From: a virus | IMG/VR virus record: IMGVR_UViG_3300023198_001068 | Length of the DNA: 64,000 nt | Direction: 5' to 3' (one strand) | Part shown: positions 2,706 through 60,170 of the stretch, one piece after another | Layout of the letters: the number at the start of each line of letters is the position of its first letter | Numbering within the stretch: the first letter of the stretch is position 1 | The notes under the pieces: generated by a model | Databases searched by the model: none | Told to the model about the DNA's origin: nothing | Seen by the model: only the letters and a program-made list of their open reading frames with translations | Position numbers and translations under genes: made by a program

Positions 2706-3070
2706 CCGGCCTTCAGGGCTTCCAGGAGTTCTTCCACGTCGGCCGCTCCGTTCTGGAGCTTGTCCAGAACCTCTCGGAGTCGAAGCTCGTACCGCTTGCA
2801 GAACTTGGGCTCCAGGACACCCTCGTAGTGCTCGGCCAGGTGCATGTTGCACCAAAGGCAGATCGTGATCACATGCGACGTGTATTGGCTCTTGGCCTCG
2901 ACGAACCCGTGCTCGGGCCAGCTTCTAAAACGGGTGGCGTCCTCAGCCCGTTGCTTGGCGTACCGGCTTTGGGTCAAGCCGCAGATGGCGCAGGTTGGCT
3001 CTCCGGGATGAGGGACCGGCTTGTCGGGCACCACGTCGGCCCAGTAGGAGCGTAGGTCGTCGTCAGCCAT
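2702..3070 (-). CDS. Hypothetical protein with CxxC pairs
   Basis: CAIC and CLWC motifs; overlaps both neighbours in a coupled operon. Confidence 0.6.
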   Translation of the reverse strand: MADDDLRSYWADVVPDKPVPHPGEPTCAICGLTQSRYAKQRAEDATRFRSWPEHGFVEAKSQYTSHVITICLWCNMHLAEHYEGVLEPKFCKRYELRLREVLDKLQNGAADVEELLEALKAG

Positions 3071-3674
3071 CGTTGAGGATGCGATCCCAGGCGGTCGGAA
3101 AGCAGTCGTGGAGCCGTTGGTAGGCTGCCTGCCGGGCTTCCTCGGAGGTAAAGGGGACGCCGTATTCTTCGTTGCGGACGGCGATGGCCGTCAACAGAAC
3201 ATTGGCCCCCTCAAAGGCTTCGGGGTTCGTAGGCTCGAAATGCGCTCCCGCTCGGTAGCTGAGCCCCGCTCCCCATTCGCCCCGATTCTGGTACTGCTGG
3301 GGCATCTCGTCTTGGGTCAGGAAGCGGCGCACCTCATCGAGCAAGTCGGCGTGCGTCTCGTCGAGACACTGCCCTACCTTCTGCATGATGGCGTCTACCA
3401 GAGGGGTGTCCATCTTCGCTCCTGGGGGCTCCCGGGGCCCCTCGGGGACTTCCCCGTTGATCGTCTCGTCCGTGTACCAGAACGCCTGGCCACATCGGAT
3501 GCACCGGTCGATCCGACTGAGCTTGAACGTCTGCTGGTTCCTCTGGACCAGCAAGATGCCGGTCCCATTGCACTCTGGGCAGGTGGAACGGAAGGCGCTG
3601 TCCGAGTCGTCACGGTCGAGGTCGGCATGGCGAACGGCCTTGATGGGCGAGTGGATGTTCTCCCCAAAGGGCAT
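3063..3674 (-). CDS. Zn-ribbon protein with C-terminal TAW tag
   Basis: CPEC...CIRC; ends PTAWDRILNDG; GGAG RBS before ATG 3674. Confidence 0.7.
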   Translation of the reverse strand: MPFGENIHSPIKAVRHADLDRDDSDSAFRSTCPECNGTGILLVQRNQQTFKLSRIDRCIRCGQAFWYTDETINGEVPEGPREPPGAKMDTPLVDAIMQKVGQCLDETHADLLDEVRRFLTQDEMPQQYQNRGEWGAGLSYRAGAHFEPTNPEAFEGANVLLTAIAVRNEEYGVPFTSEEARQAAYQRLHDCFPTAWDRILNDG

Positions 3675-3676
3675 CG

Positions 3677-4780
3677 TTACTCCACGGTGTTCGAGTGGTT
3701 GGTCTTGTTGCCTGTCTTGACCATACACCCGTGTAGCTGGTTGCGAGCCAACTTGTTGAATCTCGCGTGATCTTGGTCTGAAACGCTACTGCCGTAGGGG
3801 CTTCCCGAGTCCTTGTCGCAGTACCCCCGCTCGCCGTCGCGGGAGCCCAGGTAGATGGCAGGCTTCCTTCCCGTCAGTCCGCTGGAGCACCCGATGTCGT
3901 TGTCGGTGATGGTGTTGTAGCTCGGGGTGGCGTGGCGGGTGTTGCCCCCCTCGCCGCAGTTCCGGTAGAGGAAGATGCCCCCCTTCGGAGGGCTGGTGAT
4001 CTGGTTCTCGGTGATGGTGTTGTAGCTCGACCCGTCGAGGGCCATCGCCTCCCGCCCCGCGTGGATGGCTCTGATCCAGTTCTTGCTGAAGGTGTTGCCG
4101 TAGGTCTCCGCATCGAAGTAGACCATGACGGACGAGGACGTGCCGCCGATGGTTCCGTTCGTGAAGGTCGAGTGGTGCGTGCCGGGGGCCAGGTAGAGGG
4201 GGATGGTGGTGCCGGTCGCCATGACGGCTACCTTGTCCAGGGTGATCCGGTAGGGAGCGTTGTTCCGTACCTTGCTCACATGCGCCAGGGTGCGAGACGA
4301 TTGGGTCAGAGCCTTGCCTTCCCCGTTTCGGGCCATCCCCATGATGCGGACCGAACCGTAGATGGAGCAGTTCTTGATCGTCACGTCATGGACGGGGAAC
4401 CACCCGTTGCCCATCTCTTGAGAGCGGATGGTGACTCTGACCCCCTTGCCCTTCGTTCCGATCTTCGCCCCGTTGCAGTCCACGGCCACCCCGGTCGAGG
4501 CCGACCCTTGGAAGAACACCGCCTTGGTGATGGTGTCCCCTTTGTAGAGCTTGAGGTTGCAGTTGATGACGACGTTCGGTTGCTTCGCCGTGGGGGGCGC
4601 CAGGATGTTGGATACCTGCTCTGGAGAGCAGTCTTTCCTGACGGGAGGCTTCACGAAAACTGGCTTCCAGCCCTCCGTACCCTCGTCTCCCGGGTTGAGT
4701 TGCGGCCCGGTGGGTTCAGAAGGGTCGCAGGCGACGAGGATGAGGGTCAGTAGGGCGAGCAGGACGGTTCTGGGAGTCAT
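3677..4780 (-). CDS. Lipoprotein with right-handed parallel beta-helix (pectate-lyase-like) repeats
   Basis: Lipobox LVAC after a hydrophobic signal; repeated NTITxN / TFTNGTI beta-helix turns. Confidence 0.7.
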   Translation of the reverse strand: MTPRTVLLALLTLILVACDPSEPTGPQLNPGDEGTEGWKPVFVKPPVRKDCSPEQVSNILAPPTAKQPNVVINCNLKLYKGDTITKAVFFQGSASTGVAVDCNGAKIGTKGKGVRVTIRSQEMGNGWFPVHDVTIKNCSIYGSVRIMGMARNGEGKALTQSSRTLAHVSKVRNNAPYRITLDKVAVMATGTTIPLYLAPGTHHSTFTNGTIGGTSSSVMVYFDAETYGNTFSKNWIRAIHAGREAMALDGSSYNTITENQITSPPKGGIFLYRNCGEGGNTRHATPSYNTITDNDIGCSSGLTGRKPAIYLGSRDGERGYCDKDSGSPYGSSVSDQDHARFNKLARNQLHGCMVKTGNKTNHSNTVE

Positions 4781-10735: not shown

Positions 10736-11116
10736 TTAGGTGGCCGTCCAGTTGCTAGCCCCGGTGCCGGAGGCGGTGCTGAAGGTGACGAAGTTGGACG
10801 CGGTGTTGGACGCGGTGAGGGTGAAGCGGATGGTGTTGCTGTCGTCACGGAGAATCTTGCCGGGCTTGTCGGCTTCCAGTTCCAGGAGCCGCTCGTGCCA
10901 GGTGGGGATGATGGCGAACTCAACGCGACATTGGGAGCAGTAGGCCGTGTCCGCTTTGGTGCCGCCGTTGCAGATGTTCTTGGTGGTGGGTTTCTTGCAG
11001 CGAGGGCACTTGAACGACTCAGCTTGAGGCCGGGGCTTCTCGTCGCAGTAGTCCATCCAGTCGATGTGGGCGCAATGCCGGAGGGGGTGTTCGGGCTTCA
11101 CTGCCGGTTTAGGCAT
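10736..11116 (-). CDS. Zn-ribbon protein
   Basis: CPRC...CSQC. Confidence 0.55.
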   Translation of the reverse strand: MPKPAVKPEHPLRHCAHIDWMDYCDEKPRPQAESFKCPRCKKPTTKNICNGGTKADTAYCSQCRVEFAIIPTWHERLLELEADKPGKILRDDSNTIRFTLTASNTASNFVTFSTASGTGASNWTAT

Positions 11117-11417
11117 GGTGCTCGTCAGGGTAGGAGTCGTCGAGGATGCGAGCCCAGGCGGTCGGGATGAGCCCGATGCGCTCCTTCAGGTGCCGAACGG
11201 CGAACTCCAGGCGCCACCTCCAGCCGGGCCGCTTGTGGTTGTTGATGGTGGTGGCCGCTTCCTCTAGCTCCGCGATGGTCAACTTCCACAGAGCTTCCCG
11301 GTAGTTGTCGTACTTGATGGTCAGCTTGACGGTGATGTTGGCCGCTCTCAGTTCTTCCTCGGTGACGTGAGGGACGTGTTTGGCCTCGGGAAGACCGCAT
11401 GTGGCGCAACAAGCCAT
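11109..11417 (-). CDS. Hypothetical protein with TAW tag
   Basis: PTAWARILDD near C-terminus; leaderless-type motif 5 nt upstream. Confidence 0.7.
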   Translation of the reverse strand: MACCATCGLPEAKHVPHVTEEELRAANITVKLTIKYDNYREALWKLTIAELEEAATTINNHKRPGWRWRLEFAVRHLKERIGLIPTAWARILDDSYPDEHHA

Positions 11418-11457: not shown

Positions 11458-11940
11458 GTGGACCCCTCTCTCCCTCTTTGCCCCTGCTGCGTCCAGCGGC
11501 CCGCGACCAACTCGCTCCCGTGGCTGGAGAACTCCTGGGACTCCCAGTACGTCGAGAAGGTCCTGATCTGCGCCGAGTGCGCGACCGCCGAAATGCAACA
11601 GGTGGTAGGCATCCTCGTCCTGCGGAAGCTGATGACGGCCCTCCACACGGCCGAGGCCATGCGGGGGGACAACTTCTCGGTGCGTTTCGTGGGGGAAGGC
11701 GGCTTGCTCGCGACGATTCCCCTGACGATCTCGGGAATCCTTCCCGAGCAGGACAACCCGAAGTACGATACCTTCCTCGTGCGCTACATCAAAGACGGCC
11801 TGGAGGTGACGGTGGGCAACGAGGTCCACCCCAAGTGCCACCAGATTGGCACGGCCGTCCACAACATCACCCGCTTCGCCAAACCGTTCCCCACGGCCTG
11901 GGACAAGATTCTGACCGAGGAAATCGGAGGTACAAGATGA
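11458..11940 (+). CDS. CxxC protein with TAW tag
   Basis: CPCC/CAEC; PTAWDKILTEE; GTG start after GGTGTACGGT at 11441. Confidence 0.65.
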   Translation: MDPSLPLCPCCVQRPATNSLPWLENSWDSQYVEKVLICAECATAEMQQVVGILVLRKLMTALHTAEAMRGDNFSVRFVGEGGLLATIPLTISGILPEQDNPKYDTFLVRYIKDGLEVTVGNEVHPKCHQIGTAVHNITRFAKPFPTAWDKILTEEIGGTR

Positions 11941-14442: not shown

Positions 14443-14760
14443 CTACACCGATTCGCGGATGTGGTCCCACGCCGTCGGCATCGGACCCTCCTGATGTCGG
14501 TGACGCCAGTAGTCCTCCAAGAGTTGACCGCTCAACTCGTCGGCCTCGCTGGTCCCGTACCGGTGTTGGAGACGAGTCTTGAGTTCGGACCCGTGCCAGA
14601 GCCCCCACTCGTTGCGCAGGTGACGCCCGAGGTTGTGGTGGAAGCCGATCATGGCCTTGGGCGTGTCGGCCTCATCGACGAACGCCTTGTCCTCGTCCCC
14701 GAGCAGGTCATCGAGAGCGTGGAGCGCTTCCTCCAGCGTGTTGGGGATCGTGTCGGTCAT
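14443..14760 (-). CDS. DUF6794-like protein with TAW tag
   Basis: FHHNLGRHLRNEWGLWHGS...DELSGQLLEDYW; ends PTAWDHIRESV. Confidence 0.55.
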   Translation of the reverse strand: MTDTIPNTLEEALHALDDLLGDEDKAFVDEADTPKAMIGFHHNLGRHLRNEWGLWHGSELKTRLQHRYGTSEADELSGQLLEDYWRHRHQEGPMPTAWDHIRESV

Positions 14761-15507: not shown

Positions 15508-15873
15508 ATGCCTCGGTTCTACGTGGTGCAGTACAGCCACCGAGCACGCGGCTGGACAGACCTGCCCTCGCTGGCATCGCTTCGGCAACTCGATGTACGA
15601 CGTTCGGCCGAGACGTTCGCGTCCGAGCACCACGTCGTCACTCGCGTCATCCGCAAGCCGAAGGGGTGGACACCACCGTCTCCCGAAGCAGACGCATCCC
15701 CAGAGCCCGTGGGGACGCCCGTACCGGACTCTGAGCCCGAGCCCTGGATCGATGATCCCGATGACGTTCGGGCTGGCCAGTTGTTCCGGAAACAGGAGAA
15801 GCGGCGGGCTCGGCAGCAAGCGGCGTTCGAGCGGATCCCGACAGCGTGGGAACGCATCCTGGATGACGACTAG
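15508..15873 (+). CDS. Hypothetical protein with TAW tag
   Basis: Ends PTAWERILDDD; GGTGTACGAT 5 nt upstream. Confidence 0.75.
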   Translation: MPRFYVVQYSHRARGWTDLPSLASLRQLDVRRSAETFASEHHVVTRVIRKPKGWTPPSPEADASPEPVGTPVPDSEPEPWIDDPDDVRAGQLFRKQEKRRARQQAAFERIPTAWERILDDD

Positions 15874-16364
15874 CGGACCCGGGCGAACTTCAGGATCTTC
15901 TTGACCTGGGCCTTGGGCACGCCATCCTGGACTGCCTGGTCGATGAGCGCCTTGAGGTTCGTTTTGAAGTCGTCAGGCGTCTGCTGGACGGTCGGCTCGT
16001 CCGCTTCGGTGAGCCGGTCCCAGGCGGTCGGGCGAGGCTTGTCCTTCACGAGTTCGACGACCTCTTGGTAGATGGGAAGGCGCCACTTGCTGTTGCAGGG
16101 CTCGGGCATCTTCAGAAGCTCGGCCTCGGGCAACGCTTCGATGGCGTCGCGGTATTGCTTCCGCCGGGCCATCATGTAGGCGTCGAACTCGGGCGAAGGC
16201 AACACGAACTCCTGGTCCCGGGTGAACCCCTCCGGGGTGTGTCCAGGGTCGTGCTCGTGGGGCAGGCAACACCACTGGCAGTAGCCCTTGGGGACCTTGT
16301 GCCGAGTCCGGTTCATGCGGTCACGCATTTGGGAGGACATCGGAGCCCTATCTGGGAACGGCAC
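15870..16364 (-). CDS. Hypothetical protein with internal TAW motif
   Basis: PTAWDRLTEADE about 45 aa from the end; start uncertain. Confidence 0.6.
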   Translation of the reverse strand: MPFPDRAPMSSQMRDRMNRTRHKVPKGYCQWCCLPHEHDPGHTPEGFTRDQEFVLPSPEFDAYMMARRKQYRDAIEALPEAELLKMPEPCNSKWRLPIYQEVVELVKDKPRPTAWDRLTEADEPTVQQTPDDFKTNLKALIDQAVQDGVPKAQVKKILKFARVR

Positions 16365-16698: not shown

Positions 16699-16886
16699 AG
16701 CTCAAGACGATCTGGGAAGGCACCCTGGACGAGACTCGCTTCCGGGTGTTGTTCGACTACGCCGACGATCTCCGGGCTGAGTGGTTTGACCCGAGCACGG
16801 GGAACTGGTCACTCCTGGATGGATCGGACTCGGCGATGCGAAGTAAACTTTACCACCGCGTCCTGCTGGAAAAGATGCGGGGTTAG
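16686..16886 (+). CDS. Small hypothetical protein
   Basis: Coupled to the RHH gene. Confidence 0.5.
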   Translation: MGRLKLKTIWEGTLDETRFRVLFDYADDLRAEWFDPSTGNWSLLDGSDSAMRSKLYHRVLLEKMRG

Positions 16887-17491
16887 CGTTGGCTGTGGGG
16901 GAACAGGTCCTCGTCTAGCACGCGGTCCCAGGCGGTCAGGGGTGAGGCGGCTTTGACCTGCTTGGAAGTGATCTGGCCTTCGATCCAGTCCTTGATGATG
17001 TCGCCCCAGAGATAGGGAAAGTCCCGGTCGGACGTGCCCCACTCCGGATCCTCCGGTTCTTCCACGTAGGCTCGTATGGTCCGGGGACTGGCGACGATCC
17101 CGAAGCTGAGCGCATCCACGTCTTCGCCGTCTTTGTAGCAGAGCAGGAGATGACACCTGTTGAGCTTGGGAAGCGACGCGAGAGCCTTCACCACCCGGTG
17201 TCCGCTATCATGCCGCTGGAGTTCTGGGGAGCGACCCTCCAGCTTGAACTTGGTCAGCGGAGGTCGGTAGAGGCCGTCCCTTCGACGGATCTGGACGGGC
17301 TTCCACTGGATCGGTACCCCAACGGACTTGGCCCACGACAGGTGGATCATCCCTTTGGAGTTGGTCGCCTCGTAGAGGGGGTCACTGTCGAACAGGCGGT
17401 CGAAGCGGAGGCTCTTGAACAGCTTGGCCTGGACCGCTCGCTCGATGAGGTTGGGCTTCCTGTTCCGGCTCACGCGGCGTCCTCGGGGCAT
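16883..17491 (-). CDS. Hypothetical protein with TAW tag
   Basis: LTAWDRVLDEDLF; GGTGTATGGT 5 nt upstream. Confidence 0.75.
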   Translation of the reverse strand: MPRGRRVSRNRKPNLIERAVQAKLFKSLRFDRLFDSDPLYEATNSKGMIHLSWAKSVGVPIQWKPVQIRRRDGLYRPPLTKFKLEGRSPELQRHDSGHRVVKALASLPKLNRCHLLLCYKDGEDVDALSFGIVASPRTIRAYVEEPEDPEWGTSDRDFPYLWGDIIKDWIEGQITSKQVKAASPLTAWDRVLDEDLFPHSQR

Positions 17492-18089: not shown

Positions 18090-18887
18090 GTGATGGACCA
18101 AGAAACCCTGACGGCATTCGAGTCGCTGCTCCGGCAGATGTTCCCCACCTTCCAGGTGAAGTTCAAGGAGAAGTCGCTGTTGATGAAGGCGCTCGGCGTC
18201 GTCCTCTACCCGTTCTGCCCCACCTTCATGTCTCAGTTCGTGACTACGATAGGGTCCACGGTCTACTTCCCCAAGAAGCTCTACAAGTGGGACCCGAGAA
18301 GCACGTTCCTGACGCTGGCACACGAGATGGTCCACGTCCACGACCGCCAGAAGCACGGTCTGTGGTTCACCTTGAGCTACCTCCTGCCGCAACTGCTGGC
18401 CCTGGTTCCCCTCGTCGCCTTCGCCGTCTTGGCGTGGCCCCAGAGTTGGATCGTGCTCATCCCGGTGGTGGGCTACCTGGTGGGCTGCTTGGTTGCTCGA
18501 TGGCACATCGCTCTGTTCTACGGGGTGGTGGCCCTATCAATGGGGTCCGCCGGCTACCTGGGATTCTTGGTGGGGTGGCCTGCTTTGCTCCTGGCGGCGG
18601 CCGTCGTGCTGGCCCTCCCCTGGCCCTCCCCCTGGCGGACTCGGTGGGAGGTGCGGGGCTACTCCATGAACGTGGCAGTGACCGAGTGGATGAAAGGCAC
18701 GCTCCCCCTCGACCGCCTGCTCCCCATCTTCGGAAGCCCCTACTACTTCATGAGTTGGAGCCAGGAACGGACCCGGACCAAGTTGTCAGCCGGACTTCGG
18801 GTGGCGCTGTCGGGGCAAGAGCCCTACGGCGACGTGAAGGCGTTCCTCAAGCGTCCTCAAGCCGATCCCAAGCCGTCGGTCGCCTAG
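18090..18887 (+). CDS. Membrane protein with HExxH zincin motif
   Basis: LAHEMVHVHD followed by about 4 hydrophobic segments and RWEVRGY (third-ligand Glu). Confidence 0.65.
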   Translation: MMDQETLTAFESLLRQMFPTFQVKFKEKSLLMKALGVVLYPFCPTFMSQFVTTIGSTVYFPKKLYKWDPRSTFLTLAHEMVHVHDRQKHGLWFTLSYLLPQLLALVPLVAFAVLAWPQSWIVLIPVVGYLVGCLVARWHIALFYGVVALSMGSAGYLGFLVGWPALLLAAAVVLALPWPSPWRTRWEVRGYSMNVAVTEWMKGTLPLDRLLPIFGSPYYFMSWSQERTRTKLSAGLRVALSGQEPYGDVKAFLKRPQADPKPSVA

Positions 18888-19134
18888 CGTTGTGGTGCTT
18901 CTGGATGTCGTCGATGGCGTGACCTAGGTTGCGCTGGAGGATCATGGCCTCGCCGATGGTGAGCCGTAGCACCCGCTCGGAACCAGGTGCTCCGTTTGCG
19001 TGCATCAGGACCATCACGAGTTCAGGGTCTCGGTCGTCAGGAAGGACCCCAACGGCTACGTGGGCTTCGGCATGGATTCGGCGAGCCTGTCGCTCAGACC
19101 CATAGGCCCGGTCTCGCTCGATGAAGTGGGCCAT
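18847..19134 (-). CDS. Hypothetical protein with TAW tag
   Basis: Ends RRPTAWDRLEDA. Confidence 0.7.
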   Translation of the reverse strand: MAHFIERDRAYGSERQARRIHAEAHVAVGVLPDDRDPELVMVLMHANGAPGSERVLRLTIGEAMILQRNLGHAIDDIQKHHNARRPTAWDRLEDA

Positions 19135-22506: not shown

Positions 22507-22712
22507 GATCTAGCTCCGTTGTTCAGGGCGACCGTGAGCGCTTTCCTGGCGTCCTCCAGGGTAGCCCGGGTGTTCGGGTTCTGGTCTCTTAGCATGGACA
22601 CCACCCAGCCGGCCAGGTACGTGATGTTGGCACGACCCTCCTTGAAGTTTTTGACCTCATGAGGATGGGTGTCAACTGCCACTCTCACCATGCGTTCGAG
22701 TTCGGGGACCAT
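22494..22712 (-). CDS. GatB/YqeY C-terminal-like small protein
   Basis: VKNFKEGRANITYLAGWVVSML...NP pattern. Confidence 0.4.
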   Translation of the reverse strand: MVPELERMVRVAVDTHPHEVKNFKEGRANITYLAGWVVSMLRDQNPNTRATLEDARKALTVALNNGARSCLT

Positions 22713-42577: not shown

Positions 42578-42889
42578 ATGACGAAGCCAAAAGGCGACGA
42601 CCTCATGGAGCTAGGTCCTGAGCTTCCCTGCTCGCGGGCGAGGCCGTTCGTGCGGAGGCGTGAGCCCGAGGCCGCTCCGGAGTTCGGAGTCACGGTGCCG
42701 CTACGGGAAGGGCAGCCCATCACCGATTCCGTGGTTCACCTGGAGCACCGGGGGCCGGGCGATGTCTACAAGGTGAGCAACCCCCTGGGGGGAGAAGCCC
42801 CTGCCGGGCCGGCCAAAGTCACGACCGACGAGTATCGGACGGGGTGGGACCGCCTCTTTAGCTCCAAGCCCACGGTTGGCCAGGCGTAG
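42578..42889 (+). CDS. Hypothetical protein with TAW-variant tag
   Basis: YRTGWDRLF near end; GGTGTAGAGT upstream. Confidence 0.6.
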   Translation: MTKPKGDDLMELGPELPCSRARPFVRRREPEAAPEFGVTVPLREGQPITDSVVHLEHRGPGDVYKVSNPLGGEAPAGPAKVTTDEYRTGWDRLFSSKPTVGQA

Positions 42890-43810: not shown

Positions 43811-44135
43811 CATCACGCTTCGGGCGGTTCGGGCGGCCGGCTACGTGGTGGGAACCCCCGCCACCCTCATCTTGGAAGCAAAGAGGCTCTGGCGTTGGGC
43901 CAAAGACAAGGTGTTCCCCCCAGGGATCTGCCCCACCCCCAGGCAAAAGATGCCCAACTTTGAGTTGTGGAATGTGGGCCCCAGCATCTCGCTGGATGAG
44001 GTCAAGCAGCGCCGGTTCATGAGCCCTGAGCAAATGGCCGAGCTACAAGCCGAGCGAAGGCGGCTGCTCGACGTGCTCCAACAACGCCAGGTGGTCAACT
44101 CTCCGACCGCCTGGGAAAGGCTCTTGGGGGGCTGA
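43797..44135 (+). CDS. Hypothetical protein with TAW tag
   Basis: Ends SPTAWERLLGG; start uncertain. Confidence 0.55.
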   Translation: MTRTDITLRAVRAAGYVVGTPATLILEAKRLWRWAKDKVFPPGICPTPRQKMPNFELWNVGPSISLDEVKQRRFMSPEQMAELQAERRRLLDVLQQRQVVNSPTAWERLLGG

Positions 44136-44136: not shown

Positions 44137-44409
44137 ATGCCGCTCAACTCGACGTTCACGCAGTACGGGAATTTGATCAGCCCGCCCAGCCAGGTCATCC
44201 AAGCTGACCCTGGCCTCAACATCCAGCCGGGCGAGAGACTCCGCTACCACAAGAAGGATGGCACCGAAGTCGATGGTCTCGTCACCACGGTTGACCACTC
44301 CATCAGTCCGGACGGCCACAAGCTCTACCTCACGGTGGACTTGAGCACCGAACAGGCGGTGCGCTCCGTGCCCCGGACCTGCTGGCAACGAATCCTGGCG
44401 GCCGACTGA
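44137..44409 (+). CDS. Hypothetical protein with TAW-like tag
   Basis: Ends PRTCWQRILAAD. Confidence 0.6.
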   Translation: MPLNSTFTQYGNLISPPSQVIQADPGLNIQPGERLRYHKKDGTEVDGLVTTVDHSISPDGHKLYLTVDLSTEQAVRSVPRTCWQRILAAD

Positions 44410-45942: not shown

Positions 45943-46563
45943 TTACCCCTCCGCTCCCTCTCCTTTTTGACTGCCGTGTGCAGTGTCTTCAGTTCGTCCG
46001 AGCCCAGTTTCTCCAGCTTCAGTTTCACGGTTCTCCAATCCATCTAGGGCCTCTCCTTGGGCCTTCATGACCTTTCGGATGGCTGCGTCAGCTAAGGCCC
46101 AATCGTCCTTGTGCATGATGTGGCACGAAAAGAACATCGGAAATCCGTTGATCGAGCGGGGAGCCACGTCGGGTCCGTACTCCCCGTACACGATCCCGAT
46201 GTTCAGGAGTTCCTCCTTGGGCCAGTCCGCTAAGGCTCCCAGCCCCAGGGGCAGGAAGATGCTCTTGACCAGGTGCTCCGAGCCCTCGGGGATCTGGACC
46301 GACAGGAAGTACCGGTTGGCGATGACCCCCTCCACGAACTCCCGAAGCTCCTGGGGCGTCTTGCGTACCGGGGCGAAAAGGCGCTCCCCCCCTTCCCCTT
46401 GAACAGCCTTCCAGTCCTCGGCGATGACCTCTTGTTCCTCGGGAGGGTCTAGCAGCAGTTCGTCGTGCTGCTCGGGCCAGGAGTCGATGAACTCGGGCCA
46501 CTTCTCGTCGGGCTTAGGCACTTTCCCCTTCACCATACACCAGGTAGGCTTGGGCCGTGCCAC
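45943..46563 (-). CDS. Hypothetical protein
   Basis: Coding-like ORF. Confidence 0.6.
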   Translation of the reverse strand: MARPKPTWCMVKGKVPKPDEKWPEFIDSWPEQHDELLLDPPEEQEVIAEDWKAVQGEGGERLFAPVRKTPQELREFVEGVIANRYFLSVQIPEGSEHLVKSIFLPLGLGALADWPKEELLNIGIVYGEYGPDVAPRSINGFPMFFSCHIMHKDDWALADAAIRKVMKAQGEALDGLENRETEAGETGLGRTEDTAHGSQKGEGAEG

Positions 46564-46955
46564 CCCCCTACGAGCGCCGGGTCAGTTGGGAGCTTCGCTA
46601 CTCCCATGCCGGCATCTTGTCTCAGCGAGGGGGCACCGAGCGCTTCCGGCTCGACATGGCGCGGCTCCACGCCGACCCTCACGTCGTCAGCCTCAACGTC
46701 ACGGAAGACCCCGCAGTCCGTGGCTATGACGTGCTGGTCCAGTTCGTACCTGGAGTGGGGGGACCTCAGAACCCGGCGCTGTGGGGTCTGAACGACGAGT
46801 TGAACCGGAACGCCCCTCTGGAGTGGGGCCACAAGACGCCGCCCCCGGTCTACGAGGGCGAGGTTGACCACGACTGGAAGCCGCCCGAGCCGCCCAAGAC
46901 TGTCTGGGACCGGATTATGCAGGATGACGAGTCAGACCTGGACGATCCTGGCTAG
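46557..46955 (+). CDS. Hypothetical protein with TAW-like tag
   Basis: PKTVWDRIMQDDESDLDD. Confidence 0.6.
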   Translation: MPPPYERRVSWELRYSHAGILSQRGGTERFRLDMARLHADPHVVSLNVTEDPAVRGYDVLVQFVPGVGGPQNPALWGLNDELNRNAPLEWGHKTPPPVYEGEVDHDWKPPEPPKTVWDRIMQDDESDLDDPG

Positions 46956-48026: not shown

Positions 48027-48812
48027 TCAGTCGTCGTCCATGATGCGTTCCCAGGCGGTCGGTCGATAGACCTGGACGGGACGTGGGGTAGCGGAGGGGG
48101 GTCCGCTGTAGTCCACATGGGGCGTTGGGTGCTCCTGCTGGCCGCTCAGGGCTCGTAGGTCGGTCATGCGCTGACTAGCCCTGTTCCACCCCGGGCCGTC
48201 CTGAGCGAGCCTCTGAGCGCTCTGACGGGCTATTGGCTGGAACCGTCCATCGGCCCCTCGCTGGGACACCACCTGTCCGTCCGAGGGGCCGGGCATCGGG
48301 GCTCGGGTGAAGGGCATCGGGGGCGGGTCTTGCCGCCCAACCTGGAAGCGTGTCGCCTCGTTGGGGGTGGTGGTTCCTTCCAACAGTTGCTCGGAGTCGT
48401 ACTCGACGCTGAACTCGGAGTCCACGGAGGCATAGGTGTGCCCATCCCCGGACAGTTGGGCCATGGCCTCGGCCTCCGGATTCATGAACAGGGAGGACAA
48501 CTCGACCTGGGACAACTGCTGGGCCACGATCCTCGCGTCGCCATGCGGCTCTACTCGGGACTCCCTGACCACTCCAACAACAGGCTCTCCTGGGCGAGCT
48601 TCCCGAACTCGGCGGGAACTGTTGTCGAGGGCAACCAGGGCTCCGGGTTGGATCCTCTGGGCAGCCTCGAACTCCATGAGCGCAGCCCCGCCCAGCAACA
48701 CCTCGGGGGTCAGAGCCGGGAGAGGGTCCACTACTCGTCCCACTACCTCATCGGTGGCTTTCCGTATCTGAGGTAGCAAGTCCAGCAGAGCTTGTTCTTG
48801 GGGAGTAGGCAT
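48027..48812 (-). CDS. Hypothetical protein with TAW tag
   Basis: Ends YRPTAWERIMDDD. Confidence 0.7.
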   Translation of the reverse strand: MPTPQEQALLDLLPQIRKATDEVVGRVVDPLPALTPEVLLGGAALMEFEAAQRIQPGALVALDNSSRRVREARPGEPVVGVVRESRVEPHGDARIVAQQLSQVELSSLFMNPEAEAMAQLSGDGHTYASVDSEFSVEYDSEQLLEGTTTPNEATRFQVGRQDPPPMPFTRAPMPGPSDGQVVSQRGADGRFQPIARQSAQRLAQDGPGWNRASQRMTDLRALSGQQEHPTPHVDYSGPPSATPRPVQVYRPTAWERIMDDD

Positions 48813-54503: not shown

Positions 54504-54905
54504 TCAGTCCCGGATTCGGTCCCAGGCCGTAGGAAGCTCCCGCTCTGGCCTGCCTGCCATTCTGCGATCTTGCTCTCGTTCAGCCTTGTCCCGGAAGCGA
54601 GCGATGTCATCCATCACGGCGTCCTCGTCCCGCCACTGGGCCAACCATCCGGCGTTGCCCAGCAGCCGGTTGAGAACGGCGATGACATCGGTGTAGGTCT
54701 CGAACTCGAACTCGATCACGACCTCCAGGGCGAACAACGCAGCGATGGCGGCCCGGGTCTTGTCGAGGGTCGCCAGGCTCGCCTCGGGGTGCGTGGCCGT
54801 GTAGTAGACCTGCTGCTCGATGGCGTTCTTGAGCGTCTTGAGAAACCGCTGCCCCTGGTCCGTGTCGCAGGGTCCCGGGCCTCGCTGTCGTCGGGCGGCT
54901 GCCAT
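54504..54905 (-). CDS. Hypothetical protein with TAW tag
   Basis: Ends ELPTAWDRIRD. Confidence 0.7.
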   Translation of the reverse strand: MAAARRQRGPGPCDTDQGQRFLKTLKNAIEQQVYYTATHPEASLATLDKTRAAIAALFALEVVIEFEFETYTDVIAVLNRLLGNAGWLAQWRDEDAVMDDIARFRDKAEREQDRRMAGRPERELPTAWDRIRD

Positions 54906-55825: not shown

Positions 55826-55850
55826 CCAGCGGGCCCAAATTTAACCTGGC
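55826..55850 (-). repeat. 25-bp repeat copy 2 (inverted relative to 21385)
   Basis: GCCAGGTTAAATTTGGGCCCGCTGG on the minus strand. Confidence 0.75.
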
Positions 55851-56332
55851 TCGTCAGATTCTTCTGAGTCAGCGGAAATGATGCGCTCCCAGGCGGTCCG
55901 TGGCTCAGGTTTCGGCTTCGGTTTTACCCAGCCCGTGATGCCGGCTTCCTTCGGTTCGGTCTTGCCTGGGACGAACCGTATGCCTGGTTCCTCGTGTGGG
56001 TCGTCGTTAAGCTCGAACGTGGGGTGAGAGCGGCGGTCGCCCACCCGGAACCGACGAATGGCCCCTTGGTGGGTCTCGATCTCGGCGGCGACCCTAACGT
56101 GCTCCGCGTTCCGGGCTACCAGGTCTCGGACTTCGGCGTCACGGCGGCGGCCCCGGCGAAGTGTGAACACGAGAGCCCCCACCGAGGCTAGGGCACCCAT
56201 GATGGATACCGTCACGAAAGCCCAGGTCCACCCGAAGTTCTTGCCCACGATCACGGGGACCGATAGGGCCAAGAGAACGAGCCCGATCCAGCCGACCTTC
56301 ACTTCAATGGTTCGGTGGCCGTCAGGCATCAA
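55841..56332 (-). CDS. Membrane protein with TAW tag
   Basis: Two TM segments; EPRTAWERIISAD. Confidence 0.7.
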   Translation of the reverse strand: MMPDGHRTIEVKVGWIGLVLLALSVPVIVGKNFGWTWAFVTVSIMGALASVGALVFTLRRGRRRDAEVRDLVARNAEHVRVAAEIETHQGAIRRFRVGDRRSHPTFELNDDPHEEPGIRFVPGKTEPKEAGITGWVKPKPKPEPRTAWERIISADSEESDEPG

Positions 56333-56646
56333 TCCTCGTCGTCAAGCCTCTGCCAGGCAGTCCTCGCGGCGGCGCTCGTGACCCGGCTTGATTCCGGGTC
56401 GTCGCGGCGTGGCTCGTCTGCTGGGTCTTCCAGTTGTGTGTGGTCCTCAACATCAGAGAGCCGTTCGTCAATGATGCCTCCCCACCTCTGGAGTTCCCGG
56501 AGGGACGTAGAGAGGGTGCGCAACTCGCGTTCATGCCTTACCTCTACGACCTTGAGCCGTCGGTGGACGAACCACAGGAGCGACGCCAGAGTGCCTATCG
56601 CGGCACCGATGAAGATCCCTGGGTGAGCCGAGAGGTACTCCCACAC
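56329..56646 (-). CDS. Single-TM protein with TAW tag
   Basis: GTG 56646 lies 6 nt after GGTGTATAGT; ends ARTAWQRLDDED. Confidence 0.7.
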   Translation of the reverse strand: MWEYLSAHPGIFIGAAIGTLASLLWFVHRRLKVVEVRHERELRTLSTSLRELQRWGGIIDERLSDVEDHTQLEDPADEPRRDDPESSRVTSAAARTAWQRLDDED

Positions 56647-57576: not shown

Positions 57577-59421
57577 ATGACTCGTTCGACGATGAAGAAG
57601 CTGGGTAAGTGGGCCCTCTTGGTGGTGGTGTTGTTGCTCGTCTTGGCCGGGGCGGCGTACCTGTACCTGCCGACCCTGGCTGAGAAGTACGCCAGGGAGA
57701 AGTACCCTGACATTCAGAGCATCGACCGCGTGACCGTCGGCTGGATGTACGTCATCGCTGAGGGAGTCGTGGTCGTGAAGCCCGGACTCTGGGCTCGGGC
57801 CGAACGGGTCTCGGTGGACGACAAACAGATCCTTGTCGAGGGCGGCTTCGTGAAAGTTGACCTCGACACCTTCAAACGGCCGAAGGGTGAAGGGGGCGGC
57901 TCGGGTGGTCGCACGCTCACCCTGAAGGGCCTCAAGGTCGAGGCTCGCAAGGGGCCTGTGGTGGCTCACCTGGACGACGCCTTTTGGGAAGGAGACCTGG
58001 CCTGCGCTGAGACGGGGGTGTTCTCCTACGAGGGCTACGTGTCCGGAGGGATCCTCGTTCGGCCGTGTTGGCATCGAGACAAGAAGCTCGTCCAGGTTGA
58101 CCGCATTGAGGCCAAGGTCCCCATTCCCATCCCATTCCCCTTCATGGAGGACCAGGAGCAGGTCTACCTCACTGACGTGATCGTGGACCTGGGGCAACGG
58201 ACCCTGCAAGTCGAAACGGTGGGGCTGGGGACTACGGAGGCGCTACCAGGGTGGCAAACCGAGATGGTGATGCTCCACGACCTTCACGTCTCGCAGCCAA
58301 CTGCGCACAGCGTCCGGCTTTACGTCCACACCTTCTTGACCAACCACCCGTGGCTCAAAAAGCCGTTCACCGATAACGGGGGTGTCACGCAAACCTGGTC
58401 GGACATGATGCACCTGACCGTGAGCATTCCCTTGGAGTACGTGCAAGGGAAGTCGAGCCCGGAAGGCATCACCATCCGTCAAGGCGTCCCCAACGATGTG
58501 GAGGAACTGGTGTGGGTCACGGAACACAAGGGTTCCGTGGTCCGGCTCAAGGTCTACCCTGGTGACTGGAGGATCGTCGGAGAGGAAGCCTCGTGCCGAG
58601 ACTGGTGGAACGCCATCCCAGGGGGCGCCTACTTCGACGGCCTCTCAGAGATGAGTCACGAGGGCATCAAGGGCTCTCTCAGTTTCGAGGTCCGAATACG
58701 CCCCAAGCCCAAGCTCAAACTCAAGAGCACCTGCAAGCTGGCCTGCTCCAACCCCTTGATCGCCCGGCTCAAGAAGGGCCGCTTCACGTACATGGCCTAC
58801 AACAAGGACAACGTGCTGTTCGAGCGGGAGACGGGACCTGTCACCCAGGACTGGGTGGGCATCGGTGACTTGCCCATCCACGTCCCGGATGCGTTCGTCA
58901 TGCTGGAAGATCCTGGCTTCCGGCACCACAAGGGGTTTCTCCGGATGGCCCTGTTCAACTCTCTCAAGGCCAACCTGGAGAAGGGTCGGTTCGTCAAGGG
59001 CGGCAGCACCATCACGATGCAGTTGGCGAAGAACCTCTGGCTCCAGCGCTACCGCACGCTTGACCGGAAGGCGCGGGAGGTCATCCTGTCCGGGTGGTTG
59101 GAGGGTTGCTTCACCAAGGCTGAGCTACTGGAGTTGTACCTCAACATCATCGAGTTCGGTCCCAACGTTTACGGGATAGGCGCTGGTGCCAAGCACCACT
59201 TCAAGAAGCCAGCCCAGATGCTCGCCCTGGACGAAGCGTTCTACCTGGCCAAGATCCTTCCCCGGCCCAAGACCGCCGCACCCCCAGACCCAGAACTCAA
59301 ACGCACTCGACGCTTCATCAAGAGGCTCGTCACCTCTGGGTACTTGCCCGAGCATATCCTCCCCGATCTAGGCGAGGATGACTCAGCCCTCGATACGGAA
59401 GGGTGGGAAGTCAATGAGTGA
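57577..59421 (+). CDS. Membrane-anchored peptidoglycan glycosyltransferase (GT51, MtgA-like C-terminal domain)
   Basis: EDPGFRHHKG, GGSTITMQLAKNL, RKAREV, LELYLNIIEFG, YGIGAGAKHHF. Confidence 0.85.
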   Translation: MTRSTMKKLGKWALLVVVLLLVLAGAAYLYLPTLAEKYAREKYPDIQSIDRVTVGWMYVIAEGVVVVKPGLWARAERVSVDDKQILVEGGFVKVDLDTFKRPKGEGGGSGGRTLTLKGLKVEARKGPVVAHLDDAFWEGDLACAETGVFSYEGYVSGGILVRPCWHRDKKLVQVDRIEAKVPIPIPFPFMEDQEQVYLTDVIVDLGQRTLQVETVGLGTTEALPGWQTEMVMLHDLHVSQPTAHSVRLYVHTFLTNHPWLKKPFTDNGGVTQTWSDMMHLTVSIPLEYVQGKSSPEGITIRQGVPNDVEELVWVTEHKGSVVRLKVYPGDWRIVGEEASCRDWWNAIPGGAYFDGLSEMSHEGIKGSLSFEVRIRPKPKLKLKSTCKLACSNPLIARLKKGRFTYMAYNKDNVLFERETGPVTQDWVGIGDLPIHVPDAFVMLEDPGFRHHKGFLRMALFNSLKANLEKGRFVKGGSTITMQLAKNLWLQRYRTLDRKAREVILSGWLEGCFTKAELLELYLNIIEFGPNVYGIGAGAKHHFKKPAQMLALDEAFYLAKILPRPKTAAPPDPELKRTRRFIKRLVTSGYLPEHILPDLGEDDSALDTEGWEVNE

Positions 59422-59974
59422 CGACGCCCTGTTCATCACGATCATACTGGCGTTCACATCCCTTCCGTTTGTGACGCTCTTGGTCCTGAAGGTGTGGCGC
59501 CTACGGGCTCGACTCCGCAAGAAGAAAGCTCAGATGCGAGAGGTCGAGCAGAACCCTCACCGTCGCATCGACATACGGCTCCAAGCCAACGACCAGAGAA
59601 GTCGGGCCGTGATAGCCGAAGGGGTCCAGCGGTCCGTTGCCTCTTGGGCAGCCCAGTGGCAGGAGGCCCCCACGCTGCCTCCGGCTACTTCTGACCAGGT
59701 GCTCGCGACAACCCGTGGTGGCGACCTCATGTGGACGAGCGTGGAGGCGGGCGACGGGAGTGAGGGCCCCGGGATCCGCCTCGTAACCGGGGACGGCCGG
59801 ACCACCCCCATCCTGGCGGGCAACTCTGGTGAGAGCCCCTGTCGAGCAGACGAGTACGGCGGCATCATCCTCACGAGAGCGGGGCCTGTGACCGACGGCT
59901 CCGGCGAGGTCAAGATGGAGCCGGAGCCTCCACCTCGCACGGCCTGGGAAAGGCTCCTGGACGATGATGCCTGA
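59414..59974 (+). CDS. Single-TM protein with TAW tag
   Basis: N-terminal TM; ends PRTAWERLLDDDA. Confidence 0.7.
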   Translation: MSDDALFITIILAFTSLPFVTLLVLKVWRLRARLRKKKAQMREVEQNPHRRIDIRLQANDQRSRAVIAEGVQRSVASWAAQWQEAPTLPPATSDQVLATTRGGDLMWTSVEAGDGSEGPGIRLVTGDGRTTPILAGNSGESPCRADEYGGIILTRAGPVTDGSGEVKMEPEPPPRTAWERLLDDDA

Positions 59975-60170
59975 CTTGCCCTGGTACGTGTGGTTTGGGC
60001 TCGGGGCTCTCATGTACCCCGTGATGAAGCGAGTCATCCTGCGTGTGGTGGGCCGTCAACTCAGGCTGCCTCGACCGAGGATGAGCGTCTCGGTTTGGCA
60101 GGCCGTGTCCAAGAAGAAACCACCAGAGAACGCTCCGACGGCCTGGGAGCGCATCCAGTCTGACGAATGA
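59964..60170 (+). CDS. Small TM protein with TAW tag
   Basis: N-terminal TM; ends PTAWERIQSDE. Confidence 0.7.
   Translation: MMPDLPWYVWFGLGALMYPVMKRVILRVVGRQLRLPRPRMSVSVWQAVSKKKPPENAPTAWERIQSDE

What the first reader, a model, noticed from the sequence alone, without database searches (positions are those of the whole stretch)
3063..60170. A shared C-terminal 'TAW' peptide tag on about 28 unrelated phage proteins
Seen: 25 ORFs end (or nearly end) in (P/R/K/L)-T-[AVSC]-W-[DEQA]-[RHKL]-[ILV], usually followed by Asp/Glu residues. Gene left coordinates: 3063, 11109, 11458, 14443, 15508, 15870, 16883, 18847, 19463, 22672, 26218, 30274, 32308, 36938, 40648, 41077, 43797, 44137, 46557, 48027, 54504, 55841, 56329, 59414, 59964. 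Three more carry variants (24244 RTWFERLL, 42578 RTGWDRLF, 42911 PTWAERIM). The rest of each protein is unrelated: Zn ribbons, DUF6794-like, vWA-associated domain, TM proteins. Codons vary synonymously (ACC/ACG/ACA, GCC/GCG, CCG/CCC/CCA), which points to selection on peptide rather than DNA. Known: T-x-x-D is a helix N-capping box, so this is likely a short amphipathic helix. Inference: a genome-wide address label read by one partner, such as a phage hub or scaffold, a protease adaptor (degron), a compartment import factor or a host target. I know of no described system of this kind.
Basis: partly seen in the sequence, partly recalled or inferred. Interest (0 to 1): 0.92.

Follow-up and report, generated by a model that had tools for sequence, protein, structure and literature searches.

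The report
Shared address tag on megaphage proteins
About 28 otherwise unrelated proteins in this stretch of a giant bacterial virus carry the same short helix-forming peptide near one end; it behaves like an address label read by one still unidentified partner, and I found no published description of it.

Summary
All 25 listed genes and the 3 variants carry [P/R/K]-T-x-W-[D/E]-R-[I/L]. Of the 26 regex matches, 22 lie 2-15 residues and 4 lie 31-46 residues before the stop: 26 matches in ORF tails against about 1 expected.

Conservation is at the peptide level. Third codon positions are degenerate, and Thr, Ala and Arg codons follow genome usage.

The tag is modular. In one client family, homologues outside the clade end just before it. 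AlphaFold2 models it as a separate helix that starts right after the Thr.

It is confined to one clade of roughly 440-kb megaphages: about 34 tags in a complete relative, at background in two control phages and absent near 20 other huge-phage loci.

Its flavour shifts together across many genes per lineage (W to F, T to D, loss of R), which points to one co-evolving reader. Membrane-anchored carriers place it in the cytoplasm. Clients in relatives include a radical-SAM enzyme, a DNA methylase and a kinase.

Candidates are a clade-specific ClpX (no phage ClpP) and a Cdc48-like AAA ATPase. This scan has noted analogous tags with different sequences on other phages. Interest is high; the mechanism is inferred.

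The parts
3063..3728 (-). tagged gene (Zn-ribbon/DnaJ-CXXC-like); tail ...FPTAWDRILNDG
11109..11417 (-). tagged gene; tail ...IPTAWARILDDSYPDEHHA
11458..11940 (+). tagged gene (start set by GGTGTANNGT motif); tail ...FPTAWDKILTEEIGGTR
14443..14760 (-). tagged DUF6794 protein, directly downstream of a SocA/Panacea-domain gene (14814-15332); tail ...MPTAWDHIRESV lies outside the Pfam domain
15508..15873 (+). tagged gene; tail ...IPTAWERILDDD; the G001 orthologue ends KPSVWDRLLADD
15870..16364 (-). tagged gene, tag 45 residues before the stop (RPTAWDRLTEADE...)
16883..17491 (-). tagged gene; tail ...PLTAWDRVLDEDLFPHSQR
18847..19134 (-). tagged gene; tail ...RPTAWDRLEDA
19463..20284 (-). tagged gene; tail ...KLTSWERILYLDDAPVDENASED
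22672..23307 (-). tagged gene, tag 31 residues before the stop (VPTAWDRILRAEDL...)
23875..25311 (+). variant tag RTWFERLLEVQA (start of gene uncertain)
26218..26547 (+). tagged gene, tag 30 residues before the stop (PRTAWDRIRG...); the orthologue in G001 keeps it
30274..30774 (-). tagged gene; tail ...KPTVWDHILLGTILPE
32308..32817 (+). tagged gene; tail ...IPTAWDRLLADDE; the G001 orthologue has PSAWERLL
36938..37396 (-). tagged gene; tail ...PPTAWDLIRKDD
40648..41067 (+). tagged gene (stand-alone C-terminal domain of vWA-type proteins); tail ...PPTAWDLLDEDLFGE; homologues outside the clade end before the tag; the AF2 model shows a separate helix at 128-136
41077..41634 (+). tagged gene; tail ...PRTVWERLTQDD
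42578..42889 (+). variant RTGWDRLFSSKPTVGQA; the whole tail is conserved in G001 and G025 orthologues, so it may be family-specific rather than a portable tag
42911..43810 (+). variant tag PPTWAERIMDDDDED
43797..44135 (+). tagged gene; tail ...SPTAWERLLGG
44137..44409 (+). tagged gene; tail ...PRTCWQRILAAD
46557..46955 (+). tagged gene; tail ...PKTVWDRIMQDDESDLDDPG
48027..48812 (-). tagged gene; tail ...RPTAWERIMDDD
54504..54905 (-). tagged gene; tail ...LPTAWDRIRD
55841..56332 (-). tagged membrane protein (2 TM helices, RRGRRRD after TM2, so the C-terminus is cytoplasmic); tail ...PRTAWERIISADSEESDEPG
56329..56646 (-). tagged single-pass membrane protein (short form set by the promoter-like motif at 56662); tail ...ARTAWQRLDDED
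59378..59974 (+). tagged single-pass membrane protein (basic cluster after the TM helix, C-terminus cytoplasmic); tail ...PRTAWERLLDDDA
59964..60170 (+). tagged 68-aa protein with an N-terminal hydrophobic segment missed by the TM threshold but read from the sequence; tail ...APTAWERIQSDE; the G001 orthologue ends APTVWDRILSEL

Best explanation
The 'TAW' element is a portable short linear motif, not a DNA element. After a Pro/charge-rich linker, an N-cap residue (T; elsewhere S, D or N) starts a helix of one to two turns. Its hydrophobic face is W (or F), I/L and L/M. Its other face, and what follows, is acidic.

It is appended near a terminus of many unrelated cytoplasmic proteins, and on the cytoplasmic tails of membrane proteins, in one clade of roughly 440-kb megaphages. 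Most tags are near the C-terminus; a conserved kinase carries one near its N-terminus.

The most likely function is docking into a groove of one common cytoplasmic reader that co-evolves with it, so that a whole set of accessory proteins is handled as a group.

The candidates are the clade's own ClpX, which has an N-terminal zinc domain and a ClpP-docking loop but no phage ClpP, or its Cdc48-like single-ring AAA ATPase. Under that reading the tag is a phage-specific recognition handle for remodelling or timed removal of accessory proteins.

Shown: the motif, its peptide-level conservation, its modularity, its clade restriction, its cytoplasmic side, and its concerted drift.
For: Enrichment and tail position.

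Peptide-level rather than DNA-level conservation.

Modularity:
- In the family of 40648-41067, 7 of 13 proteins (the window's own included) carry the tag and 6 end just before it.
- Relatives in 20 other huge-phage loci lack it.
- The Pfam domains of clients end before the tag.

Helix model: AF2 gives a confident domain (residues 1-117), a linker, and a helix at 128-136 that begins right after Thr127. The cap position holds only T, S, D or N, and the position three residues on is D, E or Q.

Cytoplasmic side: in the membrane-anchored carriers the positive-inside rule puts the tag in the cytoplasm.

Unrelated clients: radical SAM, N6/N4 DNA methylase, DUF2793, DUF6166, DUF6794, and a Ser/Thr kinase. 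No body pair is similar by BLASTP.

Clade restriction: about 34 tags in G001, about 14 in G002, about 6 in G003, about 14 in G025. Control phages G005 and G006 are at background. A capped sample of 120 matches from cellular genomes held at most one real-looking tag, and a capped sample of 120 from metagenomes held one further real locus, with three tags.

Concerted lineage shifts across many genes:
- W:F is 59:12 elsewhere against 4:11 in G025 (p = 4e-5).
- T:D is 53:4 against 3:8 (p = 9e-6).
- R after the acidic residue is 34/51 against 2/20 in G002 (p = 1.5e-5).
The kinase's N-terminal tag follows its lineage's flavour in G001 and G002; in G025 the same region holds an F-type look-alike (GFFEQLE) that lacks a cap residue.

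Candidate readers: ClpX with a zinc domain is found in 4 of 4 tag-bearing genomes and in 0 of 7 near-complete tag-free relatives. There is no phage ClpP. A p97/Cdc48-like AAA of 575 aa is conserved in all four tag-bearing genomes.
Against: No binding was shown. The only co-fold (ClpX zinc domain x2 plus a tag peptide) gave no verdict.

The ClpX-tag co-occurrence is a single evolutionary event: the tag-bearing phages are one clade sharing about 75 core proteins, so it does not single out ClpX.

Two independent phages that encode ClpX, PA5oct and Atu_ph07, have no genome-wide tag.

The phage ClpX is a conventional ClpX, 55-64% identical to many others.

The tag matches none of the known ClpX recognition classes, and acidic C-termini are poor ClpX degrons in E. 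coli (established knowledge; Flynn et al. 2003, from memory).

Concerted drift could partly reflect copying of tag-coding DNA within a genome: in the window the Pro codon before the Thr is CCG in 12 of 15 tags, against 0 of 17 in G001.
Confidence: 0.6

Rival explanations
1. The tag is a kinase docking site or phospho-switch. It recruits clients to the clade's Hanks-type Ser/Thr kinase, or phosphorylation of the cap Thr switches helix formation and binding. Asp in the G025 lineage would act as a constitutive mimic.
For: A Pkinase-domain protein is conserved in G001, G002 and G025. In G001 and G002 it carries the lineage's tag near its N-terminus; the G025 copy has only a look-alike. Thr is near-invariant in four lineages and mostly Asp in G025. 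Phosphate at a helix N-terminus stabilises helices (established knowledge, from memory).
Against: Asn and Ser also occur at the cap position. The set T, S, D, N is exactly the N-cap preference set, so structure alone explains it. G025 keeps the kinase although most of its tags have Asp. No kinase-tag contact was tested. The kinase looks like one more client.
Confidence: 0.1
2. The tag is a targeting signal that loads proteins into the capsid for injection, or into a phage-made compartment.
For: This scan has read shared tags on other phages as capsid cargo labels (unchecked notes). Enzymes such as methylases are packaged by some phages (P1 DarB, established knowledge). Very large capsids carry many proteins.
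Against: Several carriers are membrane-anchored proteins with the tag on the cytoplasmic tail, and these cannot be packaged. The tagged genes lie in the variable accessory region, away from the large conserved blocks presumed structural. No cleavage site or scaffold link was seen.
Confidence: 0.08
3. The tag has no dedicated reader. It is a generic stabilising or protective tail: a capped helix plus acidic run that blocks host C-terminal proteolysis or aids solubility. It spreads because it is easy to copy.
For: In E. coli, changing the last two residues of the ssrA degradation tag to Asp (the 'ssrA-DD' variant) makes it resist ClpXP (established knowledge). Most tags are followed by D/E runs. 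The lineage-specific Pro codon bias hints at DNA-level copying of tags.
Against: A generic tail does not need an invariant Trp, a fixed W-x-x-[IL] spacing or a capping box. It also would not shift W to F and T to D together across a genome. Some tags lie 30-45 residues from the C-terminus or near the N-terminus, where they cannot shield the C-terminus.
Confidence: 0.1
4. It is a DNA-level element, such as a recombination site, cassette boundary, terminator or promoter, that happens to be translated.
For: It recurs at 3' gene ends on both strands. An integrase lies in the window. There is a CCG bias at the Pro codon in this lineage.
Against: Third codon positions are degenerate. Arg is written as both CGN and AGG. 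The flanks show no conservation, and the reading frame is always the same. Codon use equals genome use. G001 orthologues keep the peptide with other codons. The promoter-like motif of this genome is a different sequence, GGTGTANNGT.
Confidence: 0.03

Closest known systems
ClpX recognition tags and tethering peptides (ssrA, MuA and lambda O classes; the SspB XB peptide on the ClpX zinc domain; SocA as ClpXP adaptor)
   Same: These are short peptides near a terminus of unrelated proteins, read by one AAA+ unfoldase. The clade encodes a ClpX with a zinc domain, and the window encodes a SocA/Panacea-domain protein (PMC8832971 for SocA).
   Different: The sequence fits none of the five known ClpX signal classes, and the tail is acidic. 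No phage ClpP is present. No binding was shown. Other phages that encode ClpX lack such a tag.
MIT-MIM and related N-domain/helix recognition in classic-clade AAA ATPases (Vps4 with ESCRT-III; p97 with VIM)
   Same: A short C-terminal amphipathic helix on several proteins docks on the N-domain of a classic AAA ATPase. The clade has a p97/Cdc48-like AAA with a roughly 280-residue N-domain that matched no PDB chain or Pfam family.
   Different: There is no sequence match to MIM or VIM. The N-domain fold was not examined. These are eukaryotic and archaeal systems.
T4 gp45 clamp-binding C-terminal peptides; bacterial beta-clamp motif QL[SD]LF; SSB-Ct DDDIPF; acidic tails ending in Phe of T7 gp2.5 and gp4
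   Same: A shared terminal peptide on several unrelated phage or host proteins is read by one hub. Acidic and aromatic chemistry is shared.
   Different: Those serve a handful of DNA-handling proteins. The aromatic residue is the last residue (SSB, T7), or the motif is Q-L-x-L-F. Here about 30 mostly unknown accessory proteins, including membrane proteins, carry a capped helix with Trp upstream of the acidic run.
Secretion and packaging signals on many unrelated proteins (Dot/Icm C-terminal E-block; encapsulin cargo-loading peptides; T4 capsid-targeting sequence)
   Same: One short terminal signal marks dozens of unrelated proteins for one machine.
   Different: Different sequences and machines. 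No secretion system or encapsulin was seen, though this was not searched exhaustively. Membrane-anchored carriers argue against translocation.
Analogous shared terminal tags noted by this scan on other phages (e1-4772764, e1-3433032, e1-1493063, e1-173140)
   Different: The sequences are unrelated (for example tails ending in Trp, acidic tails tipped by Val, P-E-x-x-L). Those notes are AI notes, in part marked down on later checking.

Membership tests
Helix N-capping box (S/T-x-x-E/D) | The cap residue is drawn from S, T, D or N | tested here: met
   The motif definition allowed only S, T, D or N here. Within that set, T is used in 16 of 17 window tags, T, S or D in G001, and D dominates in G025 with N also present. 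Separately, PSSM hits that do not fix the cap also show S and N (PSVWDRLL, PKNVWDRLIEE).
Helix N-capping box (S/T-x-x-E/D) | An acidic residue three positions after the cap, and a helix starting right after the cap | tested here: met
   D or E in 24 of 26 window tags. The AF2 helix at 128-136 starts after Thr127.
ClpX recognition signal | Sequence matches a known class (C-motif 1 LAA-like, C-motif 2, N-motifs 1-3) | tested here: not met
   The consensus P-T-A-W-[DE]-R-[IL]-x-[DE]n resembles none of them. The classes are recalled from Flynn et al. 2003.
ClpX recognition signal | Accessible position near a terminus | tested here: met
   22 of the 26 regex matches lie within 15 residues of the C-terminus. 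The kinase tag is near the N-terminus.
ClpX recognition signal | A ClpX, and a ClpP, available in the same system | tested here: inconclusive
   ClpX is present in G001, G002, G003 and G025. There is no phage ClpP. The host is unknown. The window itself, a fragment, holds no ClpX.
ClpX recognition signal | Physical binding or tag-dependent degradation | tested here: inconclusive
   The co-fold of the zinc domain dimer with a tag peptide gave no verdict. A hexamer is too large for the tool.
Beta-clamp-binding motif | Q-L-[SD]-L-F or Q-x-x-L-x-x-F-F consensus | tested here: not met
   The tag consensus has no Gln and a different spacing.
SSB-Ct / T7 acidic tails | An acidic run ending in a hydrophobic or aromatic last residue with a free carboxylate | tested here: not met
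   The aromatic residue precedes the acidic run. The last residues vary, and the distance to the stop is 2-46 residues.
DNA repeat (attC-like cassette boundary, REP or MITE) | Nucleotide-level conservation including third codon positions, flank or inverted-repeat structure, occurrence in any frame | tested here: not met
   Third positions are degenerate, there is no flank conservation, and the motif is always in one frame.
Capsid-targeting or cargo-loading peptide | Carriers are soluble proteins that end up inside the shell; linkage to head genes or a protease site | tested here: not met
   Several carriers are membrane proteins. The tagged genes lie outside the conserved blocks. Virion content is not testable here.
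LIR/AIM motif (W-x-x-[LIV] with acidic flanks, read by Atg8) | Core W-x-x-[LIV] | tested here: met
   W-[DE]-R-[IL] fits the core. This is a resemblance only.
LIR/AIM motif (W-x-x-[LIV] with acidic flanks, read by Atg8) | An Atg8-family reader is present | not tested
   This is a bacterial virus (integrase, Cas12-like protein, peptidoglycan enzymes). No search for ubiquitin-like folds was made.

The most novel reading that the evidence does not exclude
A clade of roughly 440-kb megaphages runs its own protein-addressing system. A lineage-specific, capped amphipathic helix is appended to 6-8% of the proteome, and to more than a quarter of the genes in the variable region. It is read by a dedicated phage-encoded machine, most plausibly an AAA+ unfoldase working with host ClpP, or a scaffold. 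Dozens of fast-evolving accessory proteins, including membrane proteins and DNA-modifying enzymes, can then be recruited, switched or cleared together. Tag and reader co-evolve, giving each lineage a private code.
Probability: 0.3. Interest if true: 0.9.

Novelty: new variant of a known kind. Interest (0 to 1): 0.8.

Why it matters
Short shared tags read by one partner are known for small sets of proteins, such as degrons, clamp-binding motifs and acidic tails. Here one tag marks about thirty unrelated proteins per 64 kb and about 34 per genome, in a group of uncultured giant phages whose accessory genes are otherwise unannotated.

If one reader exists, the tag does four things:
- It sorts the unknown genes into a functional class.
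- It predicts which proteins are regulated together.
- It offers a compact portable tag-reader pair for engineering.

This scan has met analogous tags with different sequences in other phages, so the principle may be general and under-described.

Tried and rejected
- **Co-fold.** The G001 ClpX zinc domain (two copies) with a 24-residue tag peptide gave no verdict (score 0.02). This is no evidence either way.
- **Window's own contig.** Exact-sequence look-ups found nothing in the viral collection or the gene index. The window's contig is about 80.8 kb and no whole genome is held.
- **Similarity to GenBank phages.** Megablast of 25 kb gave no match.
- **Pfam on tagged proteins.** Nearly all are unannotated.
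- **Pfam, PHROGs and Atlas on conserved untagged neighbours.** Nothing pointed to a reader.
- **Subtractive genomics.** Comparing tag-bearing with tag-free genomes left 75 clade-core proteins. That is too coarse, because the controls are distant.
- **Independent test of the ClpX link.** PA5oct and Atu_ph07 encode ClpX and ClpP but have no genome-wide terminal tag. The one signal in Atu_ph07 is a tandem paralogue family. ClpX possession in general therefore does not predict a tag.
- **Panacea as reader.** Among the five genomes searched it was found only in G001, and it is also in the window. It was not tested further.
- **Cellular genomes and metagenomes.** Scans for the tag's DNA pattern gave almost only out-of-frame chance matches. 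The real ones were L087 (possibly) and L402.
- **Promoter class.** The GGTGTANNGT motif precedes tagged and untagged genes alike, so it gives no clue to timing.
- **'Tagged genes are more orphan than untagged ones'.** Not supported: about a third of each have a G001 homologue.
- **Host.** Not identified. The 'provirus' label of G025 showed no host flank.

Full report
**1. The observation**

A six-frame search for T[AVSCG]W[DEQA][RHKL][ILVMF..] finds 26 matches in the 64-kb window. Every match lies in a long, high-GC3 open reading frame. 22 lie 2-15 residues before the stop and four lie 31-46 residues before it. The three variants RTWFERLL, RTGWDRLF and PTWAERIM are also there.

Chance does not explain this:
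- A relaxed motif occurs 26 times in the last 30 residues of ORFs, against 1.0 expected from its rate elsewhere in the same ORFs.
- A 15-base degenerate DNA version occurs 6 times, against none in 100 shuffles.
- A blind search for three-residue patterns enriched in C-terminal tails returns PT.W, TAW and T.W.R at p = 1e-18 to 1e-19.

About 28 of roughly 95 genes carry the element.

**2. Peptide, not DNA**

In-frame alignment of the coding DNA shows high information at first and second codon positions and little at third positions:
- Thr is written ACG 12, ACC 11, ACT 2 and ACA 1 times.
- Arg is written CGC, CGG, CGA and AGG.
- There is no conservation in the flanks.

Codon choice at Thr, Ala and Arg does not differ from genome-wide usage (p = 0.59, 0.12, 0.23).

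One oddity remains. The Pro codon before the Thr is CCG in 12 of 15 window tags. That compares with 21 of 72 other Pro-Thr pairs in the window and 0 of 17 tags in the relative G001. This hints that in this lineage some tags were copied as DNA. It is not a conserved DNA signal.

**3. What the window is**

The window holds a tyrosine integrase, a Cas12-like protein beside a CRISPR array, a GT51 peptidoglycan glycosyltransferase, wall hydrolases and a 1501-aa polyvalent protein.

It is syntenic with positions 66-130 kb of IMGVR_UViG_3300037297_000066 (G001). G001 is a complete 437,331-bp phage genome with terminal repeats. The window's own contig is about 80.8 kb, so it is a fragment of a similar megaphage.

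**4. Anatomy of the tag**

The 15 residues before the tag are enriched in Pro (14% against 6.5%), Glu and Arg. They are depleted in Leu and Phe, as expected of a flexible linker.

AlphaFold2 on 40648-41067 with 13 homologues gives a confident domain (residues 1-117, pLDDT above 90). A weaker linker follows, then a helix at 128-136 that starts immediately after Thr127.

Across five genomes the cap position is T, S, D or N. The residue three positions later is D, E or Q. The aromatic is W or F. Three residues after the aromatic comes I, L, V or M. The search pattern itself fixed these four residue sets, so this shows which members are used, not that others are excluded.

At least three carriers are membrane proteins: 55841-56332, the short gene at 56329-56646 and 59378-59974. 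Each has a basic cluster right after the last membrane helix, which puts the tag in the cytoplasm. The 68-residue product of 59964-60170 has a similar N-terminal hydrophobic stretch followed by a basic cluster; the hydropathy threshold did not flag it, but the sequence shows it.

**5. Modular and on unrelated proteins**

With tags removed, no pair of the 28 bodies is significantly similar.

The family of 40648-41067 shows the modularity directly. Of the 13 proteins aligned (the window's own and 12 homologues), 7 carry the tag and 6 end just before it. In more distant huge phages the same domain is the C-terminal end of roughly 370-aa vWA-type proteins that stop without any tag.

Pfam domains of clients end before the tag. 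Clients in the window and its relatives include:
- DUF6794
- a radical-SAM enzyme, an N6/N4 DNA methylase, DUF2793 and DUF6166
- a Hanks-type Ser/Thr kinase that carries the tag near its N-terminus

**6. Distribution**

A position matrix built from the window finds the following:
- G001: about 34 tail tags, all between 46 and 305 kb. There are none in the conserved blocks that hold polymerase, helicase, topoisomerase and the large proteins presumed structural.
- G003 (a 107-kb fragment): about 6.
- G002 (275 kb): about 14.
- G025 (312 kb): about 14 of a variant.

Two complete control phages that share the vWA-type gene, G005 and G006, are at background. Twenty other huge-phage loci show none.

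Scans of one genome per prokaryotic species and of metagenome contigs, both capped at 120 rows, gave almost only out-of-frame chance matches. The exceptions were one possible tag (L087) and one 4.2-kb contig with three tags (L402). The tag therefore belongs to one rare clade.

**7. Concerted drift**

Within a genome the tags agree. Between lineages they differ:

| Feature | Comparison | p |
|---|---|---|
| Aromatic residue | W:F = 59:12 in the window, G001, G002, G003; 4:11 in G025 | 4e-5 |
| Cap residue | T:D = 53:4 in those four; 3:8 in G025 | 9e-6 |
| Arg after the acidic residue | 34/51 in the window, G001, G003; 2/20 in G002 | 1.5e-5 |

The conserved kinase shows part of this within one orthologous gene. 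Its N-terminal tag reads PTVWDRLLDEGEE in G001 and TNAWEALMADDD in G002. In G025 the same region holds GFFEQLE, an F-type look-alike that lacks a cap residue and so misses the motif definition.

Many unrelated genes changing in step is what a single co-evolving reader predicts. Copying of tags within a genome could contribute to the same pattern.

**8.

The tag-bearing genomes all encode a ClpX with the following features:
- a C4 zinc domain
- a GYVG pore loop
- an [L/V]GF ClpP-docking loop
- a diverged RKH loop

They encode no ClpP. None of seven near-complete tag-free relatives has the ClpX zinc domain.

The clade also has a 575-aa p97/Cdc48-like AAA ATPase with an N-domain that matched no PDB chain or Pfam family, conserved in all four tag-bearing genomes. 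A 396-aa AAA ATPase sits just downstream of a tagged gene in G001.

The window encodes a SocA/Panacea-domain protein directly upstream of the tagged DUF6794 gene. SocA is the ClpXP adaptor of Caulobacter, although most Panacea antitoxins act by direct binding (PMC8832971).

These make AAA+ unfoldases the most natural candidates, because reading short terminal peptides is what they do. The evidence is weak for four reasons:
- The co-occurrence is one evolutionary event among 75 clade-core proteins.
- The co-fold gave no verdict.
- The phage ClpX is a conventional one.
- Two independent phages with ClpX and ClpP, PA5oct and Atu_ph07, have no such tag.

Iyer et al. (PMC7824862) mention phage ClpX only as a possible translocase or assembly aid.

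**9. Comparison with known systems, and novelty**

The principle of one terminal peptide, many proteins and one reader is known. Examples are degrons, clamp-binding motifs, SSB and T7 acidic tails, MIM-MIT, secretion signals and cargo-loading peptides.

The tag fails the sequence definitions of the ClpX signal classes, the clamp motif and SSB-type tails. Its membrane-anchored carriers speak against packaging or translocation. It does match the capping-box definition.

Full-text searches found no description of a proteome-wide tag of this kind in phages. Earlier notes of this scan describe analogous tags with unrelated sequences in other phages, also without a reader and in part marked down on later checks. 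I therefore rate it a new variant of a known kind, with a real chance of being a dedicated addressing system.

**10. Verdict**

The peptide-level, modular, clade-specific, cytoplasmic and concertedly drifting nature of the tag is shown. The single-reader docking function is inferred at about 0.6-0.65.

Noticed in passing
window, 23 sites, e.g. 3729(-), 11432(-), 15347(-), 17506(-), 40633(+), 55827(-): GGTGTANNGT occurs 23 times. It typically starts 15 nt before a start codon (10-nt motif, 5-nt spacer), consistent with a -10-like promoter giving leaderless mRNAs. It precedes tagged and untagged genes alike, and it corrects three gene starts (11458, 42578, about 56646).
   Followed up: partly
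window 14814-15332 (-) and 14443-14760 (-): A SocA/Panacea (DUF4065) antitoxin-domain gene sits directly upstream of the tagged DUF6794 gene, a PanA-PanT-like pair. The Panacea gene is conserved in G001. DUF6794 is not named in the main text of the Panacea paper.
   Followed up: partly
window tags versus G001 tags: The Pro codon before the tag Thr is CCG in 12 of 15 window tags, in 21 of 72 other Pro-Thr pairs, and in 0 of 17 G001 tags. This is a lineage-specific DNA-level bias that peptide selection does not explain. It may reflect recent copying of tag-coding DNA.
   Followed up: partly
G001 40707-41993 (L038:707-1993); orthologues in G002, G003, G025: The megaphage clade encodes a complete ClpX (zinc domain, GYVG, [L/V]GF loop, diverged RKH loop) but no ClpP. 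PA5oct and Atu_ph07 encode both.
   Followed up: yes
G001 135384-136265 (L042:15384-16265); G002 214423-215337; G025 about 232081-232980: A conserved Hanks-type Ser/Thr kinase carries the tag near its N-terminus. In G001 and G002 the tag has that lineage's flavour; the G025 copy holds only an F-type look-alike (GFFEQLE) without a cap residue.
   Followed up: partly
G001 33181-34908 (L037:13181-14908) and orthologues: A 575-aa p97/Cdc48-like AAA ATPase ends in a conserved S/T-x-[FL]-[KRQ]-[LVM]-[VI] tail (TTFQMVSDEDD..., SSFKLVE, SLRLITNDDD, SFRVVNGS). The tail is tag-like, but the acidic position holds a basic or polar residue.
   Followed up: no
window 30784-31566 (-): This gene ends ...YPKTALERVATGA, a tag-like tail with Leu in place of Trp. 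The G001 orthologue conserves it (YPKTALERVSDDSES).
   Followed up: no
window 18090-18887 (+): A conserved multi-pass membrane protein has an HEMVH zincin motif, so it may be an intramembrane or membrane-bound metalloprotease. The window also holds a 1501-aa protein in which an earlier scan note reports three zincin motifs (only DUF5661 was confirmed here) and a further protein at 32823-33974 that the same note likens to a zincin.
   Followed up: no
window 39942-40619 (+): This protein has a ParB/sulfiredoxin-like DGIHR motif and lies just upstream of the tagged vWA-associated domain gene. In more distant phages that domain is fused to a vWA-type N-terminal part.
   Followed up: no
Agrobacterium phage Atu_ph07 (MF403008.1) 319-322 kb: A tandem array of about 8 small paralogues shares a C-terminal ...MY.EIAP.C motif. 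This is a paralogue family, not a portable tag.
   Followed up: partly
L402 (metagenome contig, 4.2 kb, 62% GC): Three tagged ORFs lie within 4.2 kb (PTSWQRIL, PTAWEKIL, PTAWDRIL), so this is a further member of the clade.
   Followed up: no
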